From an uncultured Candidatus Saccharibacteria bacterium (lineage in GTDB: Bacteria; Patescibacteriota; Minisyncoccia; Phycocordibacterales; JAKAEA01): 64,000 nt of DNA. Below the pieces are notes generated by a model. That model was not told the DNA's origin, did not search any database, and saw nothing but the letters and a program-made list of their open reading frames with translations. Both the position numbers and the translations under genes were made by a program. Where the stretch lies: NCBI GenBank assembly GCA_964577595.1, contig CAZNZK010000002.1:86163-150162 (forward strand), written 5' to 3'. Below, piece by piece: positions 3,989 through 64,000 of this stretch. How positions within the stretch are numbered: the stretch's first letter is position 1; each line of letters starts with the position of its first letter.

Positions 3989-4012
3989 CCGAAAGTTCTT
4001 TACAAAGGAAAA

Positions 4013-4049
4013 TAAAAGCGCGGCCCTCGCAGGTCGCGCTTTTTTCTTT
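4013..4049. terminator. Bidirectional rho-independent terminator between the convergent PLP-enzyme and panD genes
   Basis: Stem aaagcgcg/cgcgcttt with loop gccctcgcaggt, followed by ttttttcttt on the plus strand and a T-run on the minus strand. Confidence 0.5.
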
Positions 4050-4062
4050 GCCCGATTTTCGC

Positions 4063-4479
4063 TTACGATGCCTCCAGGTCCTCTGTTACCACAAACATTT
4101 CGTGGAACAGATCGGCGAGATTATTTGACTTAACGTCGATGATTTTATTCTTGTCATCAACAAACACGACGTTGGCCGCGAGATTTTCATATTCGCCACC
4201 ACTGACCCACGCCTCGGCAAGAATAATGACAACATCACCCTTCTGGAAATGATGGGCCGGCGGCTTGCCGTTGAGGCAAATCTGGCCTTCTTTGCCGAGC
4301 ATGGCATAGGTTTGCCAAGTATCGCCATTACGACAGTTATTGATGATAAGCATCTGACACGGCCTGATGCCGGCAGCTTTCATAATGAGCGGGCAAATAC
4401 TGATGGATCCTTTGTATCCAGGATTCGCCTCGGTAACCGTAGCGTTGTGGATTTTGGCCATGCAAACACGAATATTCAT
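4063..4479 (-). CDS. panD: Aspartate 1-decarboxylase (pyruvoyl-dependent)
   Basis: MNIRVCMAKIHNATVTEANPGYKGSISI matches the PanD N-terminus pattern K-hR-TVT...Y-GS (the self-cleavage Gly-Ser site). The start was set at the internal Met aligned to PanD. Confidence 0.8.
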   Translation of the reverse strand: MNIRVCMAKIHNATVTEANPGYKGSISICPLIMKAAGIRPCQMLIINNCRNGDTWQTYAMLGKEGQICLNGKPPAHHFQKGDVVIILAEAWVSGGEYENLAANVVFVDDKNKIIDVKSNNLADLFHEMFVVTEDLEAS

Positions 4480-4569
4480 GGGAATTCCCTTGAAAAAGAA
4501 CAAATGTAACAGACACAGACTGGCACCAAACTACCAGATTTGACAAAATTAGGCAAATTATGTTGAGTT

Positions 4570-5610
4570 TTATTTCGCCGCTTTCCGCACAATACAAAAC
4601 GGGGTCATTTCATCGCTCTGGCCGAGCGGATTATCGCGGAAGAGCTTGCCGATGAATTCCTCGGAAATTTTTCCGGTAGATTTTCCCAAGGAGAAAGCAC
4701 CTCGGTAATTGGCGTCTAGAATAACCGTTTCGCAACCAAGTGCCTCTTGGAAGCGGCGAGCTTCGGCACTTGGCTTATTGGGCGCCAGCTTAGCTGAATG
4801 AGCGTATTCTAAAATAAGAAACGACATTGGGCAGTCGATACTCTTCGCGCGCTTGCCGCAAATTCTGTAAAACATACCGCGAATACCAAACGGCTTCGTT
4901 AGCGCGGAAACTGCGGCCGCAAAAAGAATGCGCGGATAGCCCGTTTCCTCAAGAAAAAGTTGCATGGCCAGAGCCGTACCATGCCCGAAACCATGAAATT
5001 CACTTGAACCATAGTAGTTCCCTACCTTACGAGCCAGGAAGCGCGCTAGCGGTGTTGGCTTAATGGTACCCATATCTACCACGCGCCCTTGAGCTACCGT
5101 CAAAACTTTTTCGCTAATAAAAAGCATGTCGCCCGGTTGTAAATATGGTTGCACGTATTCTTTAAGCACGGAGAGTAAATCGGTATCGTGCAAGGTAATG
5201 GTGCGTGTACGCACGGGCGAGCGTTGGTAAGTTACGCCATCAACGTCAATGACAATTTTTTTACCGGGATTGGCGATGAATTCCGCGGATGGGCGGCGCA
5301 CTGCGGCAATGGGTGCCTCAAACGTAACTTTTTCGCCACGAAAAAGCGCAATGAGTTTTTCAACCGCCGTGCGGATTTGGGTTCGGTCTTGTTTTAGTGC
5401 TGCCCTTGAACGCAACAATTCGGTCACCTCCGTATACAGAATATGCGCCTCGTCAATTCGCTCATTAACAAAAGAAACTTCACTGACAGTTTTGTTATTT
5501 TCAGATAATGCCTTTAAAATGACTGACCCATCTGTTTGTGGTGAATATAAAACACTCAGGCCTGTAGCAGATTTCATGTCTGCGTACGTTAGCGGTTTTT
5601 CTAGCATCAT
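4570..5610 (-). CDS. CofE-like (F420-0:gamma-glutamyl ligase family) protein with an N-terminal extension
   Basis: FISEKVLTVAQGR resembles the CofE VISKAEGR motif; ILDANYRGAF resembles ITDTNGRCFR; C-terminal P..CIVRKA resembles P.VVVRG. Family assignment comes from motif memory only. Confidence 0.5.
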   Translation of the reverse strand: MMLEKPLTYADMKSATGLSVLYSPQTDGSVILKALSENNKTVSEVSFVNERIDEAHILYTEVTELLRSRAALKQDRTQIRTAVEKLIALFRGEKVTFEAPIAAVRRPSAEFIANPGKKIVIDVDGVTYQRSPVRTRTITLHDTDLLSVLKEYVQPYLQPGDMLFISEKVLTVAQGRVVDMGTIKPTPLARFLARKVGNYYGSSEFHGFGHGTALAMQLFLEETGYPRILFAAAVSALTKPFGIRGMFYRICGKRAKSIDCPMSFLILEYAHSAKLAPNKPSAEARRFQEALGCETVILDANYRGAFSLGKSTGKISEEFIGKLFRDNPLGQSDEMTPFCIVRKAAK

Positions 5611-32560: not shown

Positions 32561-32613
32561 GCCGCTATTGTAGCATTTTTATCCAGCACCACTCAGTTTT
32601 TAGCTCAAAAGCG

Positions 32614-33051
32614 CTACTTTGTATTTGTCCTGGCATCGCTCGTTACGGGGTTTTCCGCCTGGCGCACGTCTAAAGTCCAGGCCAAATCCTTCAACTTGCT
32701 GTCGCCGAGCTTTGGAATGAATGAGGTTGGCATTTCTGTTTCATTTTCCGCTGTTGGCAGAGCCACATTCTGTTCCTCCTTGTGCCAGATGTAGAGCTTG
32801 GGGTGGAGTGTGTAGTTGAACCATGATTCCATAGCGAATATAAAAGGCCGATTATTGATTTTATAGAAAGCTAAAGCCAGAGAAAATCCCAGAATTACTA
32901 AAATTGGCACAGTAAAAAGATACCAGGGCAAAAAAAGATATAGAGCAATAGAGGCGCCAATACCGCCAGCCACGTAAATAAATTGCTTTAGGGTGAGTGG
33001 CCCGAAGATTTTATCCTCAACCTCAATGAATTGTGGTACTTGGTAACGCAT
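32614..33051 (-). CDS. PrgI/VirB3-like small membrane protein
   Basis: QFIEVEDKIFGPLTLKQFIYVAGGIGASIALYLF is the typical PrgI-family N-terminus plus a TM hairpin. It sits immediately upstream of VirB4. Confidence 0.55.
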   Translation of the reverse strand: MRYQVPQFIEVEDKIFGPLTLKQFIYVAGGIGASIALYLFLPWYLFTVPILVILGFSLALAFYKINNRPFIFAMESWFNYTLHPKLYIWHKEEQNVALPTAENETEMPTSFIPKLGDSKLKDLAWTLDVRQAENPVTSDARTNTK

Positions 33052-33068
33052 GTGTGCTTATTATAGCA

Positions 33069-33986
33069 CTACGGTAAGGGCTGTTCGCGATAGGGGTCAT
33101 AACCTTTTGGGTATGGTTTGGGTTGTTGTGTCGTTGACGGAATGGGTGGAGGTGTCGGCTTGGGCGGAATAGATGGGGTTGGTGTGGGTGGTGGCGTCAT
33201 CAGCACCTCTTTTTGCGGAATGTTCACCGGTCGGGCGAGCTTTGCCAACTCAATCGGCCCCTCATATTTTTCCAATACGGGCAGGTTGGGTGGTGGCGGG
33301 GCAGTTTTTATCGGAGTGACGGGGATTGCGGGGGTTTGAGTAGTGGAAGCTACGGGGGTTGGGGCGGTGGGATTAGTGACGACGGAGGTTTTCGTCGCGG
33401 CACTTGCGGCGGCCCGTTCCCCTGCCGTGGCCATACTTTGGTTGCCCAAGCTATCTAGTTTTTTAATGAATGAATCCGCCGTCGGTGTGTCTTTTAGTTT
33501 ATTCAATTCAATTTGCGAACGTGGCAATACCGACGTGTAGCTGGACGCCGGTTTCTCCACTCCATTTCCGTAATTGGGAAGCCCCACGAATTTTCGCACT
33601 TCGCCCGCTGGACGTGGTTGGATGGCTTGAGATGTTTTGAGTGGAGTTGGCGATTTCTCATCTATTTCTTTCATTGCTTGATTGTAAAGATCGTAGGCCT
33701 TAAGCATTATTTTGTCCCCCACTTCTCCAAACAACCGCCCCGCCTCCTCTTTAGAAAAATCAAATTTTTCCTGAGCCGAAGCAATAAAATTATCCGCAGA
33801 AGCCATCGCTACCAACAAGGCAAATACACCACGTCGGAACTCTCTTTTGTCTGATTCGTCGGTTAGAGAAAAAGCGTTAGCCACATCTTGGAGCTTTTCC
33901 ATAACTTCGTCGCTCAGAATATAGTCCTGAACAGTGGGGGGTACTCCCTCAAACGCCTTTTGCAATTGTTCGTTGGTGTAGTTCAT
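33069..33986 (-). CDS. Hypothetical protein with a proline-rich C-terminus
   Basis: 305 aa. The C-terminal third is Pro/Thr-rich (PPPPNLP...PPTPTPSIPPKPTPPPIP). Confidence 0.45.
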   Translation of the reverse strand: MNYTNEQLQKAFEGVPPTVQDYILSDEVMEKLQDVANAFSLTDESDKREFRRGVFALLVAMASADNFIASAQEKFDFSKEEAGRLFGEVGDKIMLKAYDLYNQAMKEIDEKSPTPLKTSQAIQPRPAGEVRKFVGLPNYGNGVEKPASSYTSVLPRSQIELNKLKDTPTADSFIKKLDSLGNQSMATAGERAAASAATKTSVVTNPTAPTPVASTTQTPAIPVTPIKTAPPPPNLPVLEKYEGPIELAKLARPVNIPQKEVLMTPPPTPTPSIPPKPTPPPIPSTTQQPKPYPKGYDPYREQPLP

Positions 33987-55981: not shown

Positions 55982-56057
55982 GCGCCCGTAGCTCAACGGA
56001 TAGAGCACTTGGCTTCGAACCAAGGGGTTGTGGGTTCAAATCCTGCCGGGCGCACCA
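55982..56057 (+). tRNA. tRNA-Arg (anticodon TCG), CCA encoded
   Basis: Acceptor gcgcccg/cgggcgc, anticodon loop cttcgaa, T-loop ttcaaat. Confidence 0.85.
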
Positions 56058-56198
56058 CGGGGTACCACTCTGGAATGGTTTAATCCACTCCGTTACTGTC
56101 ATTATTGTTGCTATGTAAATTTGGAGAAAATAAAGTTTTGCTCTATACTACTGTTTGTTCAATTGTTGTTGGAAAAAGTGTACCTTTTCGGTAAATTA

Positions 56199-56272
56199 GC
56201 GGGCATGGTTTAGTGGTAGAACGCGTCCTTGCCAAGGACGAGACGGGAGTTCGATTCTCCCTGCCCGCACCA
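56199..56272 (+). tRNA. tRNA-Gly (anticodon GCC), CCA encoded
   Basis: Acceptor gcgggca/tgcccgc, anticodon stem-loop cgtcc-ttgccaa-ggacg. Confidence 0.9.
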
Positions 56273-56429
56273 CCGTTTCCTCTGTCTCTTAGGTTTTACT
56301 CAAAATATAAGCAAGTAACCGGCCGTTTTGATGCAGATGTGGGGATAAGTCGGGGGATATGTGTATAAAAGACAGTAAAAGTCACATGAAAGCCGTCTTT
56401 TATGGCTAACTACTGTCTAAATAGTTTCA

Positions 56430-56443
56430 CGTGCTACTATGTT
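56430..56443 (+). promoter_or_regulatory. Extended -10 promoter-like element (TGcTACTAT) upstream of yraN; repeated upstream of tRNA-Pro
   Basis: The 14-mer cgtgctactatgtt is identical at 56430-56443 and 56925-56938. Each copy lies 10-25 nt upstream of a gene start. Confidence 0.4.
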
Positions 56444-56467
56444 ATTTATGTAACCAATTTATAGGCC

Positions 56468-56860
56468 ATGAGAACAGAAAAGAGGAAAATTGGGGATCTC
56501 GGTGAAGCTCTTGCTCGTAGGTTCCTCGTGAAAAATGGCTTTAGTGTGTTACAAAGGAACTTTCTACGGCCATGCGGTGAAATAGACATAGTTGCCGCCA
56601 AGGAAGGTACTATCTATTTTGTTGAAGTTAAAACCGTTACATATAGAACATTTTCGGCAAATAAAGGGTGGGGAAGTCATAATCCTGAAGAAAACGTGGG
56701 TAGTTTGAAGCTTGGCCGGATGCGAAGGGTTGTAGCTGTGTATCTCAGAGAGAAAAGGGTCAAAAAAGACTTCAAATTCATGGTTATTTCCGTATCTGTG
56801 GAAAACTTACCGAACGGAAATATACGGCCAAGATACAGTGTCCTTTATGATGTCCTTTAG
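56468..56860 (+). CDS. yraN: YraN-family (UPF0102) endonuclease
   Basis: GEALARRFLVKNGFSVLQRNFLRPCGEIDIVA...FVEVK pattern. Confidence 0.8.
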   Translation: MRTEKRKIGDLGEALARRFLVKNGFSVLQRNFLRPCGEIDIVAAKEGTIYFVEVKTVTYRTFSANKGWGSHNPEENVGSLKLGRMRRVVAVYLREKRVKKDFKFMVISVSVENLPNGNIRPRYSVLYDVL

Positions 56861-56924
56861 CATAAAGCCTGTGTCTTTTAGTGTCCTTTTGTTGTCCTAA
56901 AAGAAATAGGAGAAAATATTTATT

Positions 56925-56938
56925 CGTGCTACTATGTT
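56925..56938 (+). promoter_or_regulatory. Second copy of the extended -10 promoter-like 14-mer, upstream of tRNA-Pro
   Basis: cgtgctactatgtt, about 12 nt upstream of the tRNA-Pro 5' end. Confidence 0.4.
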
Positions 56939-56949
56939 GCTTCAATCAG

Positions 56950-57021
56950 CGGAGTGTGGTGTAACGGTAACATGCCTGTTTTGGGAACAGGTGACTCCGG
57001 GTTCGAATCCCGGCACTCCGA
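56950..57021 (+). tRNA. tRNA-Pro (anticodon TGG)
   Basis: Acceptor cggagtg/cactccg, anticodon stem-loop cctgt-tttggga-acagg, T-arm ccggg-ttcgaat-cccgg. Confidence 0.85.
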
Positions 57022-57061
57022 CCTTTTAATCCAGCACCACTTTCACTAATGTCGTCTAAAA

Positions 57062-57385
57062 ATGAGTTCCACTTTTACTAAAACCGTAGAAGACTTTGTG
57101 TGTGAACACTGCGGCACTGCTGTTAAGGGCGATGGCTTTACAAATCATTGCCCTGTTTGTTTGTGGTCTAAACACGTAGACATTTACCCTGGTGATCGTA
57201 AAAACTCGTGTGGGGGCATTATGGAGCCCGTAGAGATGGTACTTAAGGCAGGGAAGTATGACATTTTCCACGTCTGTCTCGTTTGTGGTTCTAAGCGTCT
57301 CAATAAAACCTCAAAAGCCGATGATTTTTCAGCCATCCTTGCAGTTTCCTCGGGCGCAAGTCAACGTCGTTCGCATCGCCGGTAA
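57062..57385 (+). CDS. RNHCP-domain zinc-finger protein
   Basis: CEHCG...TNHCPVCLWSKH...CLVCGSK. The RNHCP signature is present verbatim. Confidence 0.7.
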   Translation: MSSTFTKTVEDFVCEHCGTAVKGDGFTNHCPVCLWSKHVDIYPGDRKNSCGGIMEPVEMVLKAGKYDIFHVCLVCGSKRLNKTSKADDFSAILAVSSGASQRRSHRR

Positions 57386-57430
57386 GTTAAAAGTTGAACA
57401 ATAGAATAGTTTTTGCTATGATGGCTATTT

Positions 57431-58093
57431 ATGAGCAAATTAGAACTAAAAGGAGAAGCTCTTAAGCTTCGGGAATTGGGGTATTCATATTCCCATATTG
57501 TCAGTAAAGTGCCAGTTTCAAAAGGAACTCTTTCCTCATGGTTATCCGGCGTTCCATATGTTCCCAATGAATTTAGTAAAAAGAATGCCGCAAAGGGTCT
57601 TCTTGCCGCAATACAGGCAAAACGCAAGCAGAAAGAACTCTCTTTTTCCAATGCCCGCTTATATGCCGAGAAAGACATCGGCTCTTTGACTAAGCGAGAT
57701 GTATTCATGCTTGGTTTAGGCGTTTACATAGGAGAGGGAAGTAAGACGCATAATATTATTCGTATAGTTAATTCAGATCCTAAAATCATTTCTTTTGCGA
57801 TACGATGGTTTAAAGAGGTTTCCGGTATCAAAAACTCTAATTTTGTTATTCGGCTCCATTTATATCCCGATAATACTATTTCCGAAGCTATAAAATTTTG
57901 GTCACTCAAAACAGGTATACCGCCCTCCCAATTCCAGAAAATTTCTGTAGATTCTCGTAAAAATAAAGTCTCCAAGAAAGGCAAACTGCCTTATGGTACA
58001 GCGCATCTTTCGGTGGTTAGTCGCGGTAATAAGGAATTCGGTGTACTATTGGCACGCAGAATAGGCGCATGGATTGAAAAAGCGCTAGAATAA
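57431..58093 (+). CDS. Putative LAGLIDADG-type homing endonuclease with an N-terminal HTH
   Basis: Single LAGLIDADG-like motif FMLGLGVYIGEGSK followed by the typical amphipathic segment. N-terminal HTH (LRELGYSYSHIVSKVPVSKGTLSSWL). Confidence 0.45.
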   Translation: MSKLELKGEALKLRELGYSYSHIVSKVPVSKGTLSSWLSGVPYVPNEFSKKNAAKGLLAAIQAKRKQKELSFSNARLYAEKDIGSLTKRDVFMLGLGVYIGEGSKTHNIIRIVNSDPKIISFAIRWFKEVSGIKNSNFVIRLHLYPDNTISEAIKFWSLKTGIPPSQFQKISVDSRKNKVSKKGKLPYGTAHLSVVSRGNKEFGVLLARRIGAWIEKALE

Positions 58094-58100
58094 AGAATAA

Positions 58101-58174
58101 GCGGGCATAGTTTAGTGGTAGAATGGCACACTTCCAATGTGCATACGGGAGTTCGATTCTCCCTGCCCGCACCA
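58101..58174 (+). tRNA. tRNA-Gly (anticodon TCC), CCA encoded
   Basis: Near-identical to the Gly-GCC gene outside the anticodon arm. Anticodon stem-loop gcaca-cttccaa-tgtgc. Confidence 0.9.
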
Positions 58175-61957: not shown

Positions 61958-62659
61958 ATGCGCCTTCACCGATTTTATGTGCCCAATACTGACTTTGCAG
62001 TAGGAAAGAAAGTAGAGCTTTCTGCCTCAGAGCACCTCCATCAATGGAAGAATGTGTTCCGCTTGGAAGTGGGGGACGAAATTGTCGTTTTTAATGGCGC
62101 CGAGGAAGCCGAATACCGCGCCAAGTTTGTGACGCTTTCAAAAACAGAAGCTGAATTGGAAATTCTTGAGAAGCGTGAGGTAGAAAAAGCAAAGAGGGAA
62201 GTCTCGCTTTACGTTGCTCTCATCAAGAAAGATCGTTTTGAATGGTTGGTGGAAAAAGCCACCGAGCTTGGGGTGGCTCGCATTTGCCCGGTTCTTTCCG
62301 AGCGTACGGAGGTGAAAGGCGTCAATAGTGAACGCGTGCAGAAAATTGCCATTGAAGCGGTAGAACAGTCGGGCCAGTGCCGTGTGCCGAGAATTGAGGA
62401 AATTGTTACTTTGAAAATTGCTTTAGAACAGGCAATAAATCCTTTTGTGTGTGATATTGGGGCGCAAACTGCCGCCAGCAGTTTTTCTGGCACCGAGCCC
62501 ATTAGTATTTTCATCGGCCCAGAAGGCGGCTGGTCGCCTGCGGAAAAGGCGCTTTTTACAGAGAAAAAAGTACCCACCATTTCCTTTGGCAAAAACACCT
62601 TGCGGGCGGAAACCGCAGCTCTAGTTAGCGCCGTTCTTGCTCTTGACATGAGTAGTTAA
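61958..62659 (+). CDS. rsmE: 16S rRNA (uracil1498-N3)-methyltransferase
   Basis: MRLHRFYV N-terminus, PUA-like plus SPOUT domain (GPEGGWS). Confidence 0.85.
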   Translation: MRLHRFYVPNTDFAVGKKVELSASEHLHQWKNVFRLEVGDEIVVFNGAEEAEYRAKFVTLSKTEAELEILEKREVEKAKREVSLYVALIKKDRFEWLVEKATELGVARICPVLSERTEVKGVNSERVQKIAIEAVEQSGQCRVPRIEEIVTLKIALEQAINPFVCDIGAQTAASSFSGTEPISIFIGPEGGWSPAEKALFTEKKVPTISFGKNTLRAETAALVSAVLALDMSS

Positions 62660-62759
62660 TTATAGTATACTAGTGAAAGCTAGATCTTTGAGATCATGCC
62701 ATGGTGAATGGGATGTTCCCGTTCCTGGCAAGTTGCTCCACTTACAAGGAGAATAGATT

Positions 62760-63437
62760 ATGGCGAAAGACATGATCGGCTCAATCACCCGGGCTCTCGT
62801 GGGTGTCCCCAATGAGTTTCATAGCGTCGTGCTTGACGTGGTGAACAACCTTTCTACCTCTGTCGAGCGTGCCGCATGGCACGCTCGACTCGAGGAAGTT
62901 CTCAGGGAGGGCTTGGTTGATGCGAAAGCATTGGTCAAAAATCTCTTTGAGAAAGTGCTGGAAGTCACCCTCCACGCATCCCCCGAAAAGCTCACGGCGG
63001 AGTGCTTTACCAACCGCTTGCGCTACTATCCCCGCGATGGCGACCTAGACAAGCGGCTCCCTAAGAGCCAACCAGCTCAAGCCAAGCAGGAGTTCCGAGC
63101 ACAGGAACTGACGCGGGAGGCCTCGTTTCTGGAGATGGTCAAAAACATCTTCAGTACCGACGGCACCGTCGCCAGCTACTCCAGGCTTCTCATTGAGGGC
63201 GGCCACATTGTGACCTTGCCTAAGATTGAGGAGCTCATTGATCGCCAAGAAGGTGGCGAAGATGTTGGTCTCAAAACCAACGGCTACGCCAACCTGTTCT
63301 TTGTTCTCAATGACGATGGAACGGTTTCCGTCGTCCGCGTGTTCCGCTGCGATGGGCAGTGGTACGTGCGCGTGTTCCGGCTTGACGACGCTCGCCGTTG
63401 GGACGCTGAGAGCCACGTGTTCCTTCGCAACTCTTGA
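62760..63437 (+). CDS. DGR target protein candidate (hypothetical 225-aa protein with a C-terminal variable repeat)
   Basis: The C-terminal 36 codons (63324-63431) are a near-copy of the downstream template-like repeat. All 17 mismatches fall at template adenines. Confidence 0.6.
   Translation: MAKDMIGSITRALVGVPNEFHSVVLDVVNNLSTSVERAAWHARLEEVLREGLVDAKALVKNLFEKVLEVTLHASPEKLTAECFTNRLRYYPRDGDLDKRLPKSQPAQAKQEFRAQELTREASFLEMVKNIFSTDGTVASYSRLLIEGGHIVTLPKIEELIDRQEGGEDVGLKTNGYANLFFVLNDDGTVSVVRVFRCDGQWYVRVFRLDDARRWDAESHVFLRNS
63324..63431 (+). repeat. DGR variable repeat (VR) candidate
   Basis: Aligns to 63714-63821. Ten codons differ (cgc, ttc, tgc, tac, cgc, ttc, gac, cgc, gac, agc) where the partner copy has AAC, plus two further A-only differences at the 3' end. 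Confidence 0.65.
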
Positions 63438-63470
63438 TTGACCCTTTGACACTCTGTCACTTGGTCCCTT

Positions 63471-63508
63471 AATACCCTCATTTTGACGAAAGGCAAAATG
63501 AGGGTATT
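63471..63508. other. Perfect 14-bp hairpin/cruciform immediately downstream of the VR
   Basis: aataccctcatttt (63471-63484), a 10-nt loop, then aaaatgagggtatt (63495-63508). Confidence 0.6.
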
Positions 63509-63713
63509 CTTTTATCTGTGAACACGCTGGCATCTGCGGTGAAAACTTCGGGTGGCGATGTTTCAGGTTTTTCTACCTGAGTAAAAAAGAAAAGGGTTGG
63601 TACAGCTCGCTAGGGCATAGAGATGCCGAATACGATTCAGCCCGGAGATTATCGCGATTATTTAGTCGGGGCATTCAATGGGTGGGGCGATATGGAAGGC
63701 GGGTTGTACATAT

Positions 63714-63821
63714 GTTTCCGTCGTCAACGTGAACCGCAACGATGGGCAGTGGAACGTGAACGTGAACCGGCTTGACAACGCTAACCGTTGGAACGCTGAG
63801 AACCACGTGTTCCTTCGAAAC
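63714..63821 (+). repeat. DGR template repeat (TR) candidate (AAC-codon-rich, non-coding copy)
   Basis: 108-nt copy of the VR with 10 AAC codons. It is read only as part of a spurious ORF (63678..63947). No reverse transcriptase gene lies within the remaining 180 nt of the window. Confidence 0.6.
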
Positions 63822-64000
63822 AATTTTCTTTCTTCCGTCTTTAGTGTAAGGCGGAAGTTTTGTTTTCCGAGTAATTTTTCCAGCCGACAAGCATCTTACT
63901 TGCCTCCACTAGTGTTTTTGAAATACGAAGATAGTGTTTGTCGTTAAGTATCTTACATTCCCAGGCTACCAATAGAAAAAACTTGGCAGAATCGTTGCCT

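What the first reader, a model, noticed from the sequence alone, without database searches (positions are those of the whole stretch)
62760..63831. Diversity-generating retroelement signature: VR/TR pair with adenine-specific mismatches
The last 36 codons of the 225-aa gene (VR, 63324-63431) and a non-coding copy about 390 bp downstream (TR, 63714-63821) are roughly 84% identical. Every one of the 17 mismatches sits where the TR has an adenine: ten AAC codons in the TR correspond to cgc, ttc, tgc, tac, cgc, ttc, gac, cgc, gac and agc in the VR, plus a cga-versus-cgc and an aat-versus-tct difference at the 3' end. Adenine-restricted divergence between a template and a C-terminal variable region, concentrated on AAC codons, is the defining footprint of DGR mutagenic homing (established for Bordetella phage BPP-1 and the abundant CPR/DPANN DGRs). 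Ordinary duplication would not bias mismatches to one base in one copy. The target protein (VSVVRVFRCDGQWYVRVFRLDDARRWDAESHVFLRNS) has no signal peptide and no recognisable CLec or Ig fold at the motif level, so it may be a compact, undescribed variable-domain scaffold.
Basis: partly seen in the sequence, partly recalled or inferred. Interest (0 to 1): 0.85.

Follow-up and report, generated by a model that had tools for sequence, protein, structure and literature searches.

The report
Chromosomal DGR, with a phage-borne second target
This is a genuine diversity-generating retroelement in an uncultivated ultrasmall (CPR) bacterium, ordinary as a cassette, but its template also matches a hypervariable gene in a co-occurring phage that has no retroelement of its own.

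Summary
VR 63324-63435 and TR 63714-63825 differ at 19 positions, and all 19 are TR adenines (P about 4e-14). Sixteen of them fall in ten AAC codons.

The window ends inside the cassette. Contigs identical to the window show an avd gene on the minus strand (63841-64173) and a DGR-type reverse transcriptase at 64196-65230. The RT carries LGNVTSQ and YADD motifs. This is the known TR-(avd)-RT architecture of CPR DGRs.

The target belongs to a large family with no Pfam model (477 clusters). Confident AlphaFold models match, weakly but consistently, the C-type-lectin/FGE fold, including the DGR protein TvpA. The "undescribed scaffold" idea is therefore not favoured.

One result was unexpected. Scanning metagenomes with the TR (every A replaced by N) found two alleles of a different 165-aa gene on a 36-kb phage.
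- Both alleles match the TR at every non-adenine position.
- They differ from the TR, and from each other within the VR, only at adenine positions.
- The phage genome closes into a circle and has no RT and no TR.
- The phage occurs in the same samples as the bacterium.

The cassette is a new member of a known kind. A host DGR diversifying a phage gene in trans is the novel reading, and it is inferred, not shown.

The parts
62643..62671 (+). Promoter-like site upstream of the target gene (TTGACA, 17 nt, TATACT; 11 of 12 matches)
   Evidence: Consensus scan, (L002 9872-9900; window coordinate = L002 + 52771). This is a consensus match only and function is inferred.
62760..63437 (+). DGR target (variable protein) gene, 225 aa. 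It has an N-terminal three-helix module (residues 1-50) and a C-terminal domain of about 165 aa that carries the VR.
63324..63435 (+). Variable repeat (VR), codons 189-225. The variable residues are 193, 195, 197, 202, 204, 206, 210, 212, 215 and 218, which are AAC codons in the TR.
   Evidence: 19 of 19 mismatches at TR adenines. It is the only VR for this TR in the window and in L002.
63414..63435 (+). 3' boundary of the VR (IMH-like). All three VRs end ...GTGTTCCTTCGCAACT, whereas the TR reads ...GTGTTCCTTCGAAACA.
   Evidence: the same two VR-versus-TR differences are shared by the chromosomal VR and both phage VRs. The role in directional homing is inferred by analogy with BPP-1 IMH/IMH*.
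63471..63508 (+). Terminator-like hairpin (15-bp stem followed by a T-run) after the target gene
   Evidence: RNA fold z-score -4.9.
63714..63825 (+). Template repeat (TR), non-coding, 30 adenines in 112 nt, ten AAC codons in the VR reading frame
   Evidence: It is the template for three different VRs.
63832..63857 (+). GC-rich hairpin plus T-run 7 nt after the TR. It overlaps the 3' end of the convergent avd gene.
   Evidence: A hairpin plus TTTT at the same position occurs in the L001, L005 and L008 cassettes, with different stem sequences.
63841..64000 (-). 3' part (last 52 codons plus stop) of the avd accessory gene. The full gene is 63841-64173 in window-equivalent coordinates and is cut by the window end.
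   Evidence: Six-frame translation. The full 110-aa gene is on the identical contig L003. Best NCBIfam hit is DivGenRetAVD, E = 1.4e-6. Homologues in L001, L005 and L008 hit Pfam bAvd.

Best explanation
The finding is the left two-thirds of a complete chromosomal diversity-generating retroelement of a CPR/Patescibacteria bacterium. Its order is target gene with a C-terminal VR, then TR, then avd on the opposite strand, then RT. The window cuts it inside avd.

Mechanism, inferred from the established DGR pathway (Bordetella phage BPP-1): the TR is transcribed, the Avd-RT complex copies it into cDNA while misincorporating opposite template adenines, and the cDNA replaces the VR. The TR itself stays unchanged. 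The ten AAC codons allow 15 amino acids each without stop codons, about 6e11 variants. They sit at alternating positions of the last beta-strands and the loop of a divergent C-type-lectin-like domain. The protein is 225 aa, has no signal peptide and is probably cytoplasmic.

The same TR sequence has also templated the VR of a distantly related 165-aa gene on a co-occurring 36-kb circular phage genome. That phage has neither an RT nor a TR. The most economical reading is that the bacterial DGR acts in trans on the phage gene inside infected cells.

What is shown: the repeat pair and its adenine bias, the cassette genes, conservation of the cassette in relatives, the fold prediction, the phage VR-TR match, and the absence of an RT or TR on the phage.

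What is inferred: current activity at the chromosomal VR, the transcription units, the ligand-binding role, and that the chromosomal copy is the TR the phage uses.
For: - Adenine-restricted mismatches: 19 of 19, P = 3.9e-14.
- Identical contigs L002-L004 extend the window. They carry avd(-) and an RT(+) with RVT_1, LGNVTSQ and YADD.
- avd's best NCBIfam hit is DivGenRetAVD.
- The same target / TR / (avd) / RT layout with adenine-biased VR/TR pairs occurs in L001 (16 of 18), L005 (13 of 15) and L008 (14 of 14). Their RTs are 56-59% identical to this one and have the same motifs.
- The layout equals architecture B3, 'TR-(avd)-RT', of Wu et al. 2018 (PMC5758913).
- Phage: the TR pattern with A replaced by N hits only a 165-aa gene on IMGVR_UViG_3300028558_000068 and an allele on Ga0265336_10007831. 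Mismatches to the TR are 16 of 16 and 13 of 13 at adenines, and similarity starts and stops at the TR borders.
- The two phage alleles differ at 12 VR sites, all TR adenines, versus 12 differences of any kind in 386 nt outside the VR.
- The phage genome is closed by an independent assembly with a 37-nt junction. It has no RT (HMM built from four DGR RTs; Pfam; YxDD scan) and no second TR-like copy.
- Phage and bacterium both occur in JGI 3300028800 and in ENA ERZ27245399.
Against: - The chromosomal VR is identical in all five retrievable contigs. These are one strain, with 0 differences over the up-to-11.2-kb overlap with the window and 1-2 differences between contigs downstream. Current activity at this VR is therefore unproven.
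- A homologous Giovannonibacteria target is also invariant across at least 24 contigs.
- No BPP-1-like GC-rich hairpin immediately follows the VR, and none is conserved among relatives.
- The avd HMM scores are below curated cut-offs (28.6 bits against 80).
- For the trans reading: only one of four chromosomal TRs tested has a phage-borne VR. Another replicon with the same TR cannot be excluded, because the metagenome collection scanned does not even contain the bacterial contig. The host of the phage has not been shown independently.
Confidence: 0.9

Rival explanations
1. The cassette is real but is a quiescent or decayed DGR. The chromosomal VR was diversified in the past and is now fixed, and the element no longer homes.
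For: All five contigs carrying the target have the same VR. The 90% cluster of the target has a single member. A homologous target is invariant over at least 24 contigs, and one of those contigs has a split RT.
Against: The RT and avd reading frames are intact, with catalytic YADD and LGNVTSQ. The TR keeps all ten AAC codons. Two phage alleles that are about 3% diverged in their flanks carry different adenine-site variants of this same TR and remain identical to it at all 82 non-adenine sites. This requires recent homing from a TR of this sequence. Consensus assemblies also hide minority VR variants.
Confidence: 0.12
2. The phage VR is not diversified by the chromosomal DGR of this bacterium. 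It is diversified by another copy of the same TR plus an RT on an unseen replicon (another phage, a satellite, a plasmid or a different host). The match to the window is then shared ancestry of the cassettes.
For: The scanned metagenome and viral collections are incomplete: the bacterial contig itself was not returned. DGRs move horizontally (literature cited in PMC10907252). Related phages L028 and L023 carry family members templated by other, unknown TRs.
Against: The only TR copy found anywhere is the chromosomal one. The phage genome is closed and lacks both RT and TR. Phage and bacterium share two sample records. A 112-nt TR identical at all non-adenine sites on an unrelated replicon would itself need recent transfer.
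Confidence: 0.25
3. The 36-kb element is a prophage (or its excised form) of the same bacterium. Its VR is then simply a remote target in the same chromosome, a situation already known for cellular DGRs.
For: Remote targets up to megabases away are documented (PMC5758913; PMC10907252). The source contig is about 500 kb, and only 64 kb plus 10 kb of it was inspected.
Against: No integrase or recombinase was recognised among the phage ORFs. Two assemblies are circular permutations of each other with no bacterial flanks. GC content is 42.4% versus 47.6%. Apart from the VR/TR, no phage sequence occurs in the window or its extension.
Confidence: 0.12
4. An ordinary tandem duplication or gene-conversion tract, with no retroelement involved.
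For: Two direct repeats 390 nt apart, one coding and one not.
Against: All 19 mismatches fall at adenines of one copy only (P about 4e-14). An RT and avd lie adjacent. The same pattern occurs in four independent homologous cassettes, and three VRs radiate from one TR.
Confidence: 0.01

Closest known systems
CPR/Patescibacteria cellular DGRs (Paul et al. 2017; 'CPR set' and architecture B3 TR-(avd)-RT of Wu et al. 2018, PMC5758913; DGR clade 2 of Roux et al. 2021, PMC8144416)
   Same: Chromosomal location among housekeeping genes. A single adjacent target with a C-terminal VR. avd on the opposite strand between TR and RT. A target with no transmembrane segment or recognisable domain. A homologous cassette (L005-L007) comes from a scaffold named ANAN16-1, which from my own knowledge I take to be the Rifle groundwater data of those surveys; this was not checked.
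   Different: [quoted passage not shown] Here a second VR written from the same TR sits on a separate phage genome. I could not check whether this VR class equals one of Wu's UVR1-6 classes, because the supplement is not held.
Bordetella phage BPP-1 DGR (mtd / avd / TR / brt)
   Same: Adenine-specific TR-to-VR information transfer, AAC-rich TR design, VR at the 3' end of the target, an Avd accessory protein, RT motifs, and a CLec-type variable domain.
   Different: Here the element is cellular, not phage-borne. avd is inverted and lies downstream of the TR. A terminator-like hairpin directly follows the TR. No GC-rich hairpin directly follows the VR. The target is not a tail fibre.
Treponema denticola TvpA and other FGE-subtype CLec-fold DGR variable proteins (Mtd, TaqVP)
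   Different: Sequence identity is about 10%. There is no FGE-sulfatase or DUF1566 Pfam signal in any of 42 family members. Foldseek finds no match. The VR motif VxVxRxxxxWxVxVxRLxxxxRWxAxxRFFxRN is unlike the ...GFR end of CLec1.
Trans-acting DGRs with remote targets in one genome (Treponema; Thiohalocapsa PB-PSB1, PMC10907252)
   Same: [quoted passage not shown]
   Different: Those targets lie on the same chromosome as the RT and TR. Here the orphan VR is on a closed 36-kb phage genome. [quoted passage not shown] The reverse arrangement, a cellular DGR with a phage-borne target, was not found in the papers searched.

Membership tests
Diversity-generating retroelement (DGR) | TR/VR repeat pair whose mismatches are restricted to adenines of the non-coding copy | tested here: met
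   19 of 19 over 112 nt, P = 3.9e-14. Two further VRs from the same TR give 16 of 16 and 13 of 13.
Diversity-generating retroelement (DGR) | Adjacent DGR-type reverse transcriptase (RVT_1 with [LIV]GxxxSQ in motif 4 and YxDD) | tested here: met
   Not inside the window. On contigs identical to the window it lies 196 nt past the end: 344 aa, RVT_1, LGNVTSQ at residue 201, YADD at residue 233. The group II intron model scores 148 bits against a cut-off of 300, so it is not an intron maturase.
Diversity-generating retroelement (DGR) | Avd accessory gene (present in most but not all DGRs) | tested here: met
   A 110-aa minus-strand ORF whose last 52 codons are at 63841-64000. Its best and only NCBIfam hit is DivGenRetAVD, E = 1.4e-6, but below the cut-off. 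Orthologues in L001, L005 and L008 hit Pfam bAvd.
Diversity-generating retroelement (DGR) | IMH/IMH* asymmetry at the 3' end of VR and TR, and a hairpin/cruciform just downstream of the VR (defined in BPP-1) | tested here: inconclusive
   A fixed VR-versus-TR difference at the 3' edge is shared by three VRs (CGCAACT versus CGAAACA). No GC-rich hairpin directly after the VR is conserved among five loci. The strong hairpin at 63471-63508 looks like the gene's terminator.
Diversity-generating retroelement (DGR) | Ongoing diversification: VR polymorphism confined to TR-adenine sites within populations | tested here: inconclusive
   Chromosomal VR: no variation, but only one strain could be retrieved. 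Phage-borne VR from the same TR: 12 of 12 allele differences at TR adenines. Read mapping is not possible with these tools.
DGR cassette architecture B3, TR-(avd)-RT (Wu et al. 2018) | Order TR, then avd on the reverse strand, then RT, with the target upstream | tested here: met
   with the definition. The same order is seen in L001, L005 and L008.
C-type-lectin (CLec/FGE-subtype) fold DGR variable proteins | The VR-bearing domain adopts the CLec fold | tested here: inconclusive
C-type-lectin (CLec/FGE-subtype) fold DGR variable proteins | Variable residues clustered on one solvent-exposed binding face | not testable with these tools
Only the secondary structure is known: variable residues alternate along strands 189-197 and 200-207 and along the 208-218 loop.

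The most novel reading that the evidence does not exclude
A chromosomally encoded DGR of a CPR bacterium diversifies, in trans, a gene carried by a phage that infects it. The phage has dispensed with its own RT and TR and keeps only a VR with the right 3' boundary. It thereby borrows the host's mutagenesis machinery, or alternatively is targeted by it. The TR-VR match would then also serve as a sequence-based host assignment for a CPR phage. Related phages carrying orphan members of the same protein family (L023, L028) suggest the arrangement may recur.
Probability: 0.5. Interest if true: 0.8.

Novelty: new member of a known kind. Interest (0 to 1): 0.6.

Why it matters
As a cassette, this adds one more CPR DGR to a well-catalogued class. 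It shows that one of the "unknown" CPR variable-protein families, which is large and has no Pfam model, most likely uses a very divergent C-type-lectin scaffold, as Roux et al. 2021 predicted.

The phage link is the part worth pursuing. DGR surveys normally look for targets on the same contig as the RT, so cross-replicon targets would be missed systematically. If a host DGR rewrites a phage gene (or a phage exploits its host's DGR), three things follow. It would change how DGR "ownership" and benefit are assigned. It would provide a new kind of host-virus link for uncultivated CPR bacteria. And it would give a concrete pair of homologous, probably cytoplasmic, hypervariable proteins in host and phage whose interaction, for example sensor versus decoy, can be tested.

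Tried and rejected
- Looked for an RT inside the window with a six-frame YxDD scan. None was found; the RT lies beyond the window end.
- Looked up the exact 225-aa product. It is not on record; the collection calls the gene from the second Met (P0001).
- The genome-contig scan did not contain the source genome and gave only L001.
- Sequence-level family assignment of the target failed in Pfam, NCBIfam, PDB sequences and a scan of 42 family members. The TRAP/MtrB hit at E = 0.05 was dismissed as insignificant.
- Foldseek against the PDB found nothing. The AFDB libraries were not available.
- Looked for extra VRs of this TR in the window and in L002. None was found.
- Tested for a conserved post-VR hairpin. 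It is not conserved.
- Tested whether a phage-borne VR is general by scanning IMG/VR with the TRs of L001, L005 and L008. There were no hits.
- Looked for population variants of a homologous target (P0127 cluster). The members differ only in start-codon calls.
- Paul et al. 2017 and the Wu et al. supplement (UVR class alignments) are not held, so I could not check whether this VR class was already named.
- Rejected as explanations: plain duplication, a group II intron RT, chimeric assembly of the phage contig (independent assemblies agree), and recent capture of the host gene by the phage (outside the VR the two genes are unalignable at the DNA level and about 43% identical over 90 aa).

Full report
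**1. The observation**

The region was read directly and aligned without gaps at offset 390.
- 63324-63431 and 63714-63821 are 84% identical, with 17 mismatches. Every mismatch is at an adenine of the downstream, non-coding copy.
- The repeat runs to 63435/63825 (112 nt), giving 19 mismatches on the 30 TR adenines and none on the 82 other positions (hypergeometric P = 3.9e-14).
- Sixteen mismatches occupy first or second positions of ten TR AAC codons, in the frame of the 225-aa ORF 62760-63437.
- Similarity ends abruptly on both sides.

**2. The rest of the cassette**

No ORF with an RT active site exists in the 64-kb window. The minus strand at the extreme end (63999 down to 63841) encodes an open C-terminal peptide.

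A protein search found the target itself, called from its second Met (P0001). Its contigs L002-L004 are identical to the window: 0 mismatches over the overlap, which is up to 10,000 bases upstream plus 1,229 downstream of position 62772. The window can therefore be extended. In window-equivalent coordinates:
- avd occupies 63841-64173 on the minus strand. It is 110 aa, and its best NCBIfam hit is DivGenRetAVD (E = 1.4e-6, below the cut-off).
- The RT occupies 64196-65230 on the plus strand. It is 344 aa, hits RVT_1, and carries LGNVTSQ at residue 201 and YADD at residue 233. From my own knowledge, the [LIV]GxxxSQ motif is the DGR RT signature.

The flanking genes are housekeeping: rsmE, clpP, RNase Y and HU on one side, and trigger factor, H+-PPase and nusA on the other. 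The element is therefore chromosomal. The order target / TR / (avd) / RT is architecture B3 of Wu et al. 2018.

**3. Relatives**

The same layout with adenine-biased repeats is found in three other contig sets:
- a Patescibacteria MAG (L001; 16 of 18 mismatches at A);
- Candidatus Giovannonibacteria contigs whose scaffold name begins ANAN16-1 (L005-L007; 13 of 15), which I take from my own knowledge to be the Rifle groundwater data;
- L008/L009 (14 of 14).

The RTs are 56-59% identical, with the same motifs. In all four cassettes a GC-rich hairpin followed by TTTT sits roughly 10-15 nt after the TR, with different stem sequences. I infer that it ends the TR transcript and also terminates the convergent avd gene. 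No hairpin immediately after the VR is conserved. The strong hairpin at 63471-63508 (z = -4.9) looks like the target gene's terminator.

**4. The target protein**

It has no Pfam, NCBIfam or PDB-sequence relative. None of 42 family members hits FGE-sulfatase or DUF1566. Yet an exhaustive profile-free search finds 477 representative clusters (170 at E of 1e-10 or better). Nearly all the listed hits are under 260 aa, most between about 170 and 250, and they share a hypervariable C-terminus built on the scaffold VSVVxVxRxxxxWxVxVxRLxxxxRWxAxxRFFxRN.

AlphaFold models are confident: pLDDT 92.1 for the whole protein and 96.3, with pTM 0.91, for residues 58-225. The protein has an N-terminal three-helix module, then a mixed alpha/beta domain whose last three strands and the intervening loop carry the VR.

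Structure comparison gave the following.
- Foldseek against the PDB finds nothing.

I therefore read this as a very divergent CLec-type domain, with probability about 0.7. That is what Roux et al. 2021 expected for uncharacterised CPR VR domains. It does not look like a new scaffold. The ten AAC codons allow 15 residues each, about 6e11 variants.

**5. Is it active?**

The chromosomal VR is identical in all retrievable copies, but these are one strain. The Giovannonibacteria homologue is also invariant across at least 24 contigs.

**6. An unexpected second target**

I scanned the JGI metagenome collection with the TR, replacing every A by N. Two hits came back. Neither was the bacterial contig, which that collection evidently lacks.

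Both hits are VRs inside a different gene. It encodes 165 aa, is homologous to the window's target only over its last ~90 residues (43% identity), and has a coiled-coil-like tail after the VR.
- Over the same 112 nt, these VRs match the window's TR at all 82 non-adenine positions. They differ from it at 16 and 13 positions, all adenines.
- Similarity begins and ends at the TR borders.
- All three VRs share CGCAACT where the TR has CGAAACA.
- The two alleles come from contigs that are 90-98% identical in the flanks. They differ at 12 VR sites, all TR adenines, against 12 differences of any type in the other 386 nt of the gene.

The gene sits on IMGVR_UViG_3300028558_000068, a 35,853-bp contig that I reassembled completely from overlapping loci.
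- It encodes a large terminase (PHROG E = 7e-43), a major head protein, NinG, an SSB-like protein, a glucosaminidase-domain protein, a 1,058-aa fibre-like protein and a glycosyltransferase cluster.
- Its GC content is 42.4%, against 47.6% for the window. It shares nothing else with the window.
- An independent 36,031-bp assembly bridges the contig's end to its start with only 37 extra bases. The genome is therefore circular or circularly permuted, and complete.
- It contains no RT, by an HMM built from four DGR RTs, by Pfam and by a YxDD scan. It has no second TR-like copy and no recognised integrase.
- Phage and bacterial contigs both occur in JGI 3300028800 and in ENA ERZ27245399.

**7. Interpretation**

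That a TR of exactly this sequence templated the phage VRs, recently and repeatedly, is as secure as the primary finding.

That the copy used is the chromosomal one, meaning the host DGR acts in trans on the phage genome during infection or lysogeny, is the most economical reading but remains an inference. I give it about 0.5, with two alternatives:
- an unseen replicon carrying the same cassette, about 0.25;
- an integrated prophage, making this an ordinary remote target, about 0.12.

Trans action on remote chromosomal targets is established, as is plasmid-supplied avd-TR-brt. I found no report of a cellular DGR with a phage-borne orphan VR. Wu et al. argued that targets remote from a DGR would not travel with a phage.

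The arrangement did not generalise to three other chromosomal TRs. However, two other phage contigs (L023, L028) carry orphan members of the same protein family that were templated by other, unknown TRs.

**8. Verdict**

The cassette is a new member of a known kind (a CPR DGR with architecture B3 and a probable divergent CLec target). The phage-borne VR raises the interest above that of a routine DGR and defines clear follow-up tests.

Noticed in passing
L010 9240-9737 (= IMGVR_UViG_3300028558_000068, 32607-33104); allele on L011: An orphan VR on a complete 36-kb phage genome with no RT and no TR. [quoted passage not shown] Two alleles differ within the VR only at TR-adenine sites.
   Followed up: yes
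L008 4001-4648 (P0004), cassette to 6618: Another TR-(avd)-RT DGR (14 of 14 adenine mismatches). Its target shares the window target's N-terminal helical module (MSKDMLGSVTRALVGVPHEY...) but has a different VR-bearing C-terminal domain. This suggests a common N-terminal adaptor fused to interchangeable variable domains.
   Followed up: partly
P0044 (926 aa): A protein with six matched stretches of the family's C-terminal domain, that is, tandem copies of the variable-domain scaffold. Its context is unknown.
   Followed up: no
L005-L007 (Candidatus Giovannonibacteria), target at 4001-4672: The homologous target has an identical VR in at least 24 contigs from many samples. In one sample (L006) the RT is split into two ORFs, so some cassettes of this type may be quiescent or decaying.
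   Followed up: partly
L028 (ENA ERZ27253678, 38.7-kb phage contig) 10001-10672 and 2339-3877; L023 57-440: Related phages carry orphan members of the same family (223 aa and 127 aa) with no RT or TR in the DNA held. L028 also encodes a Cpn60-type chaperonin, ERF, YqaJ and YopX.
   Followed up: partly
phage contig, L013 15033-20048: A run of four to five glycosyltransferase genes and a methyltransferase gene lies inside the 36-kb phage, next to the head gene.
   Followed up: no
window 55982-58174: Four tRNA genes (Arg-TCG, Gly-GCC, Pro-TGG, Gly-TCC) are interspersed with small genes. The 220-aa ORF at 57431-58093 between them has no Pfam hit. To my eye its sequence (…LGLGVYIGEGSK…) resembles a LAGLIDADG-type motif, but this was not tested.
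   Followed up: no
window 63832-63857; L001 ~2100-2150; L005 ~5065-5095; L008 ~5100-5135: A hairpin plus T-run immediately 3' of the TR is conserved in position but not in sequence across four cassettes. It may define the 3' end of the TR RNA, or it may be a bidirectional terminator shared with avd.
   Followed up: partly
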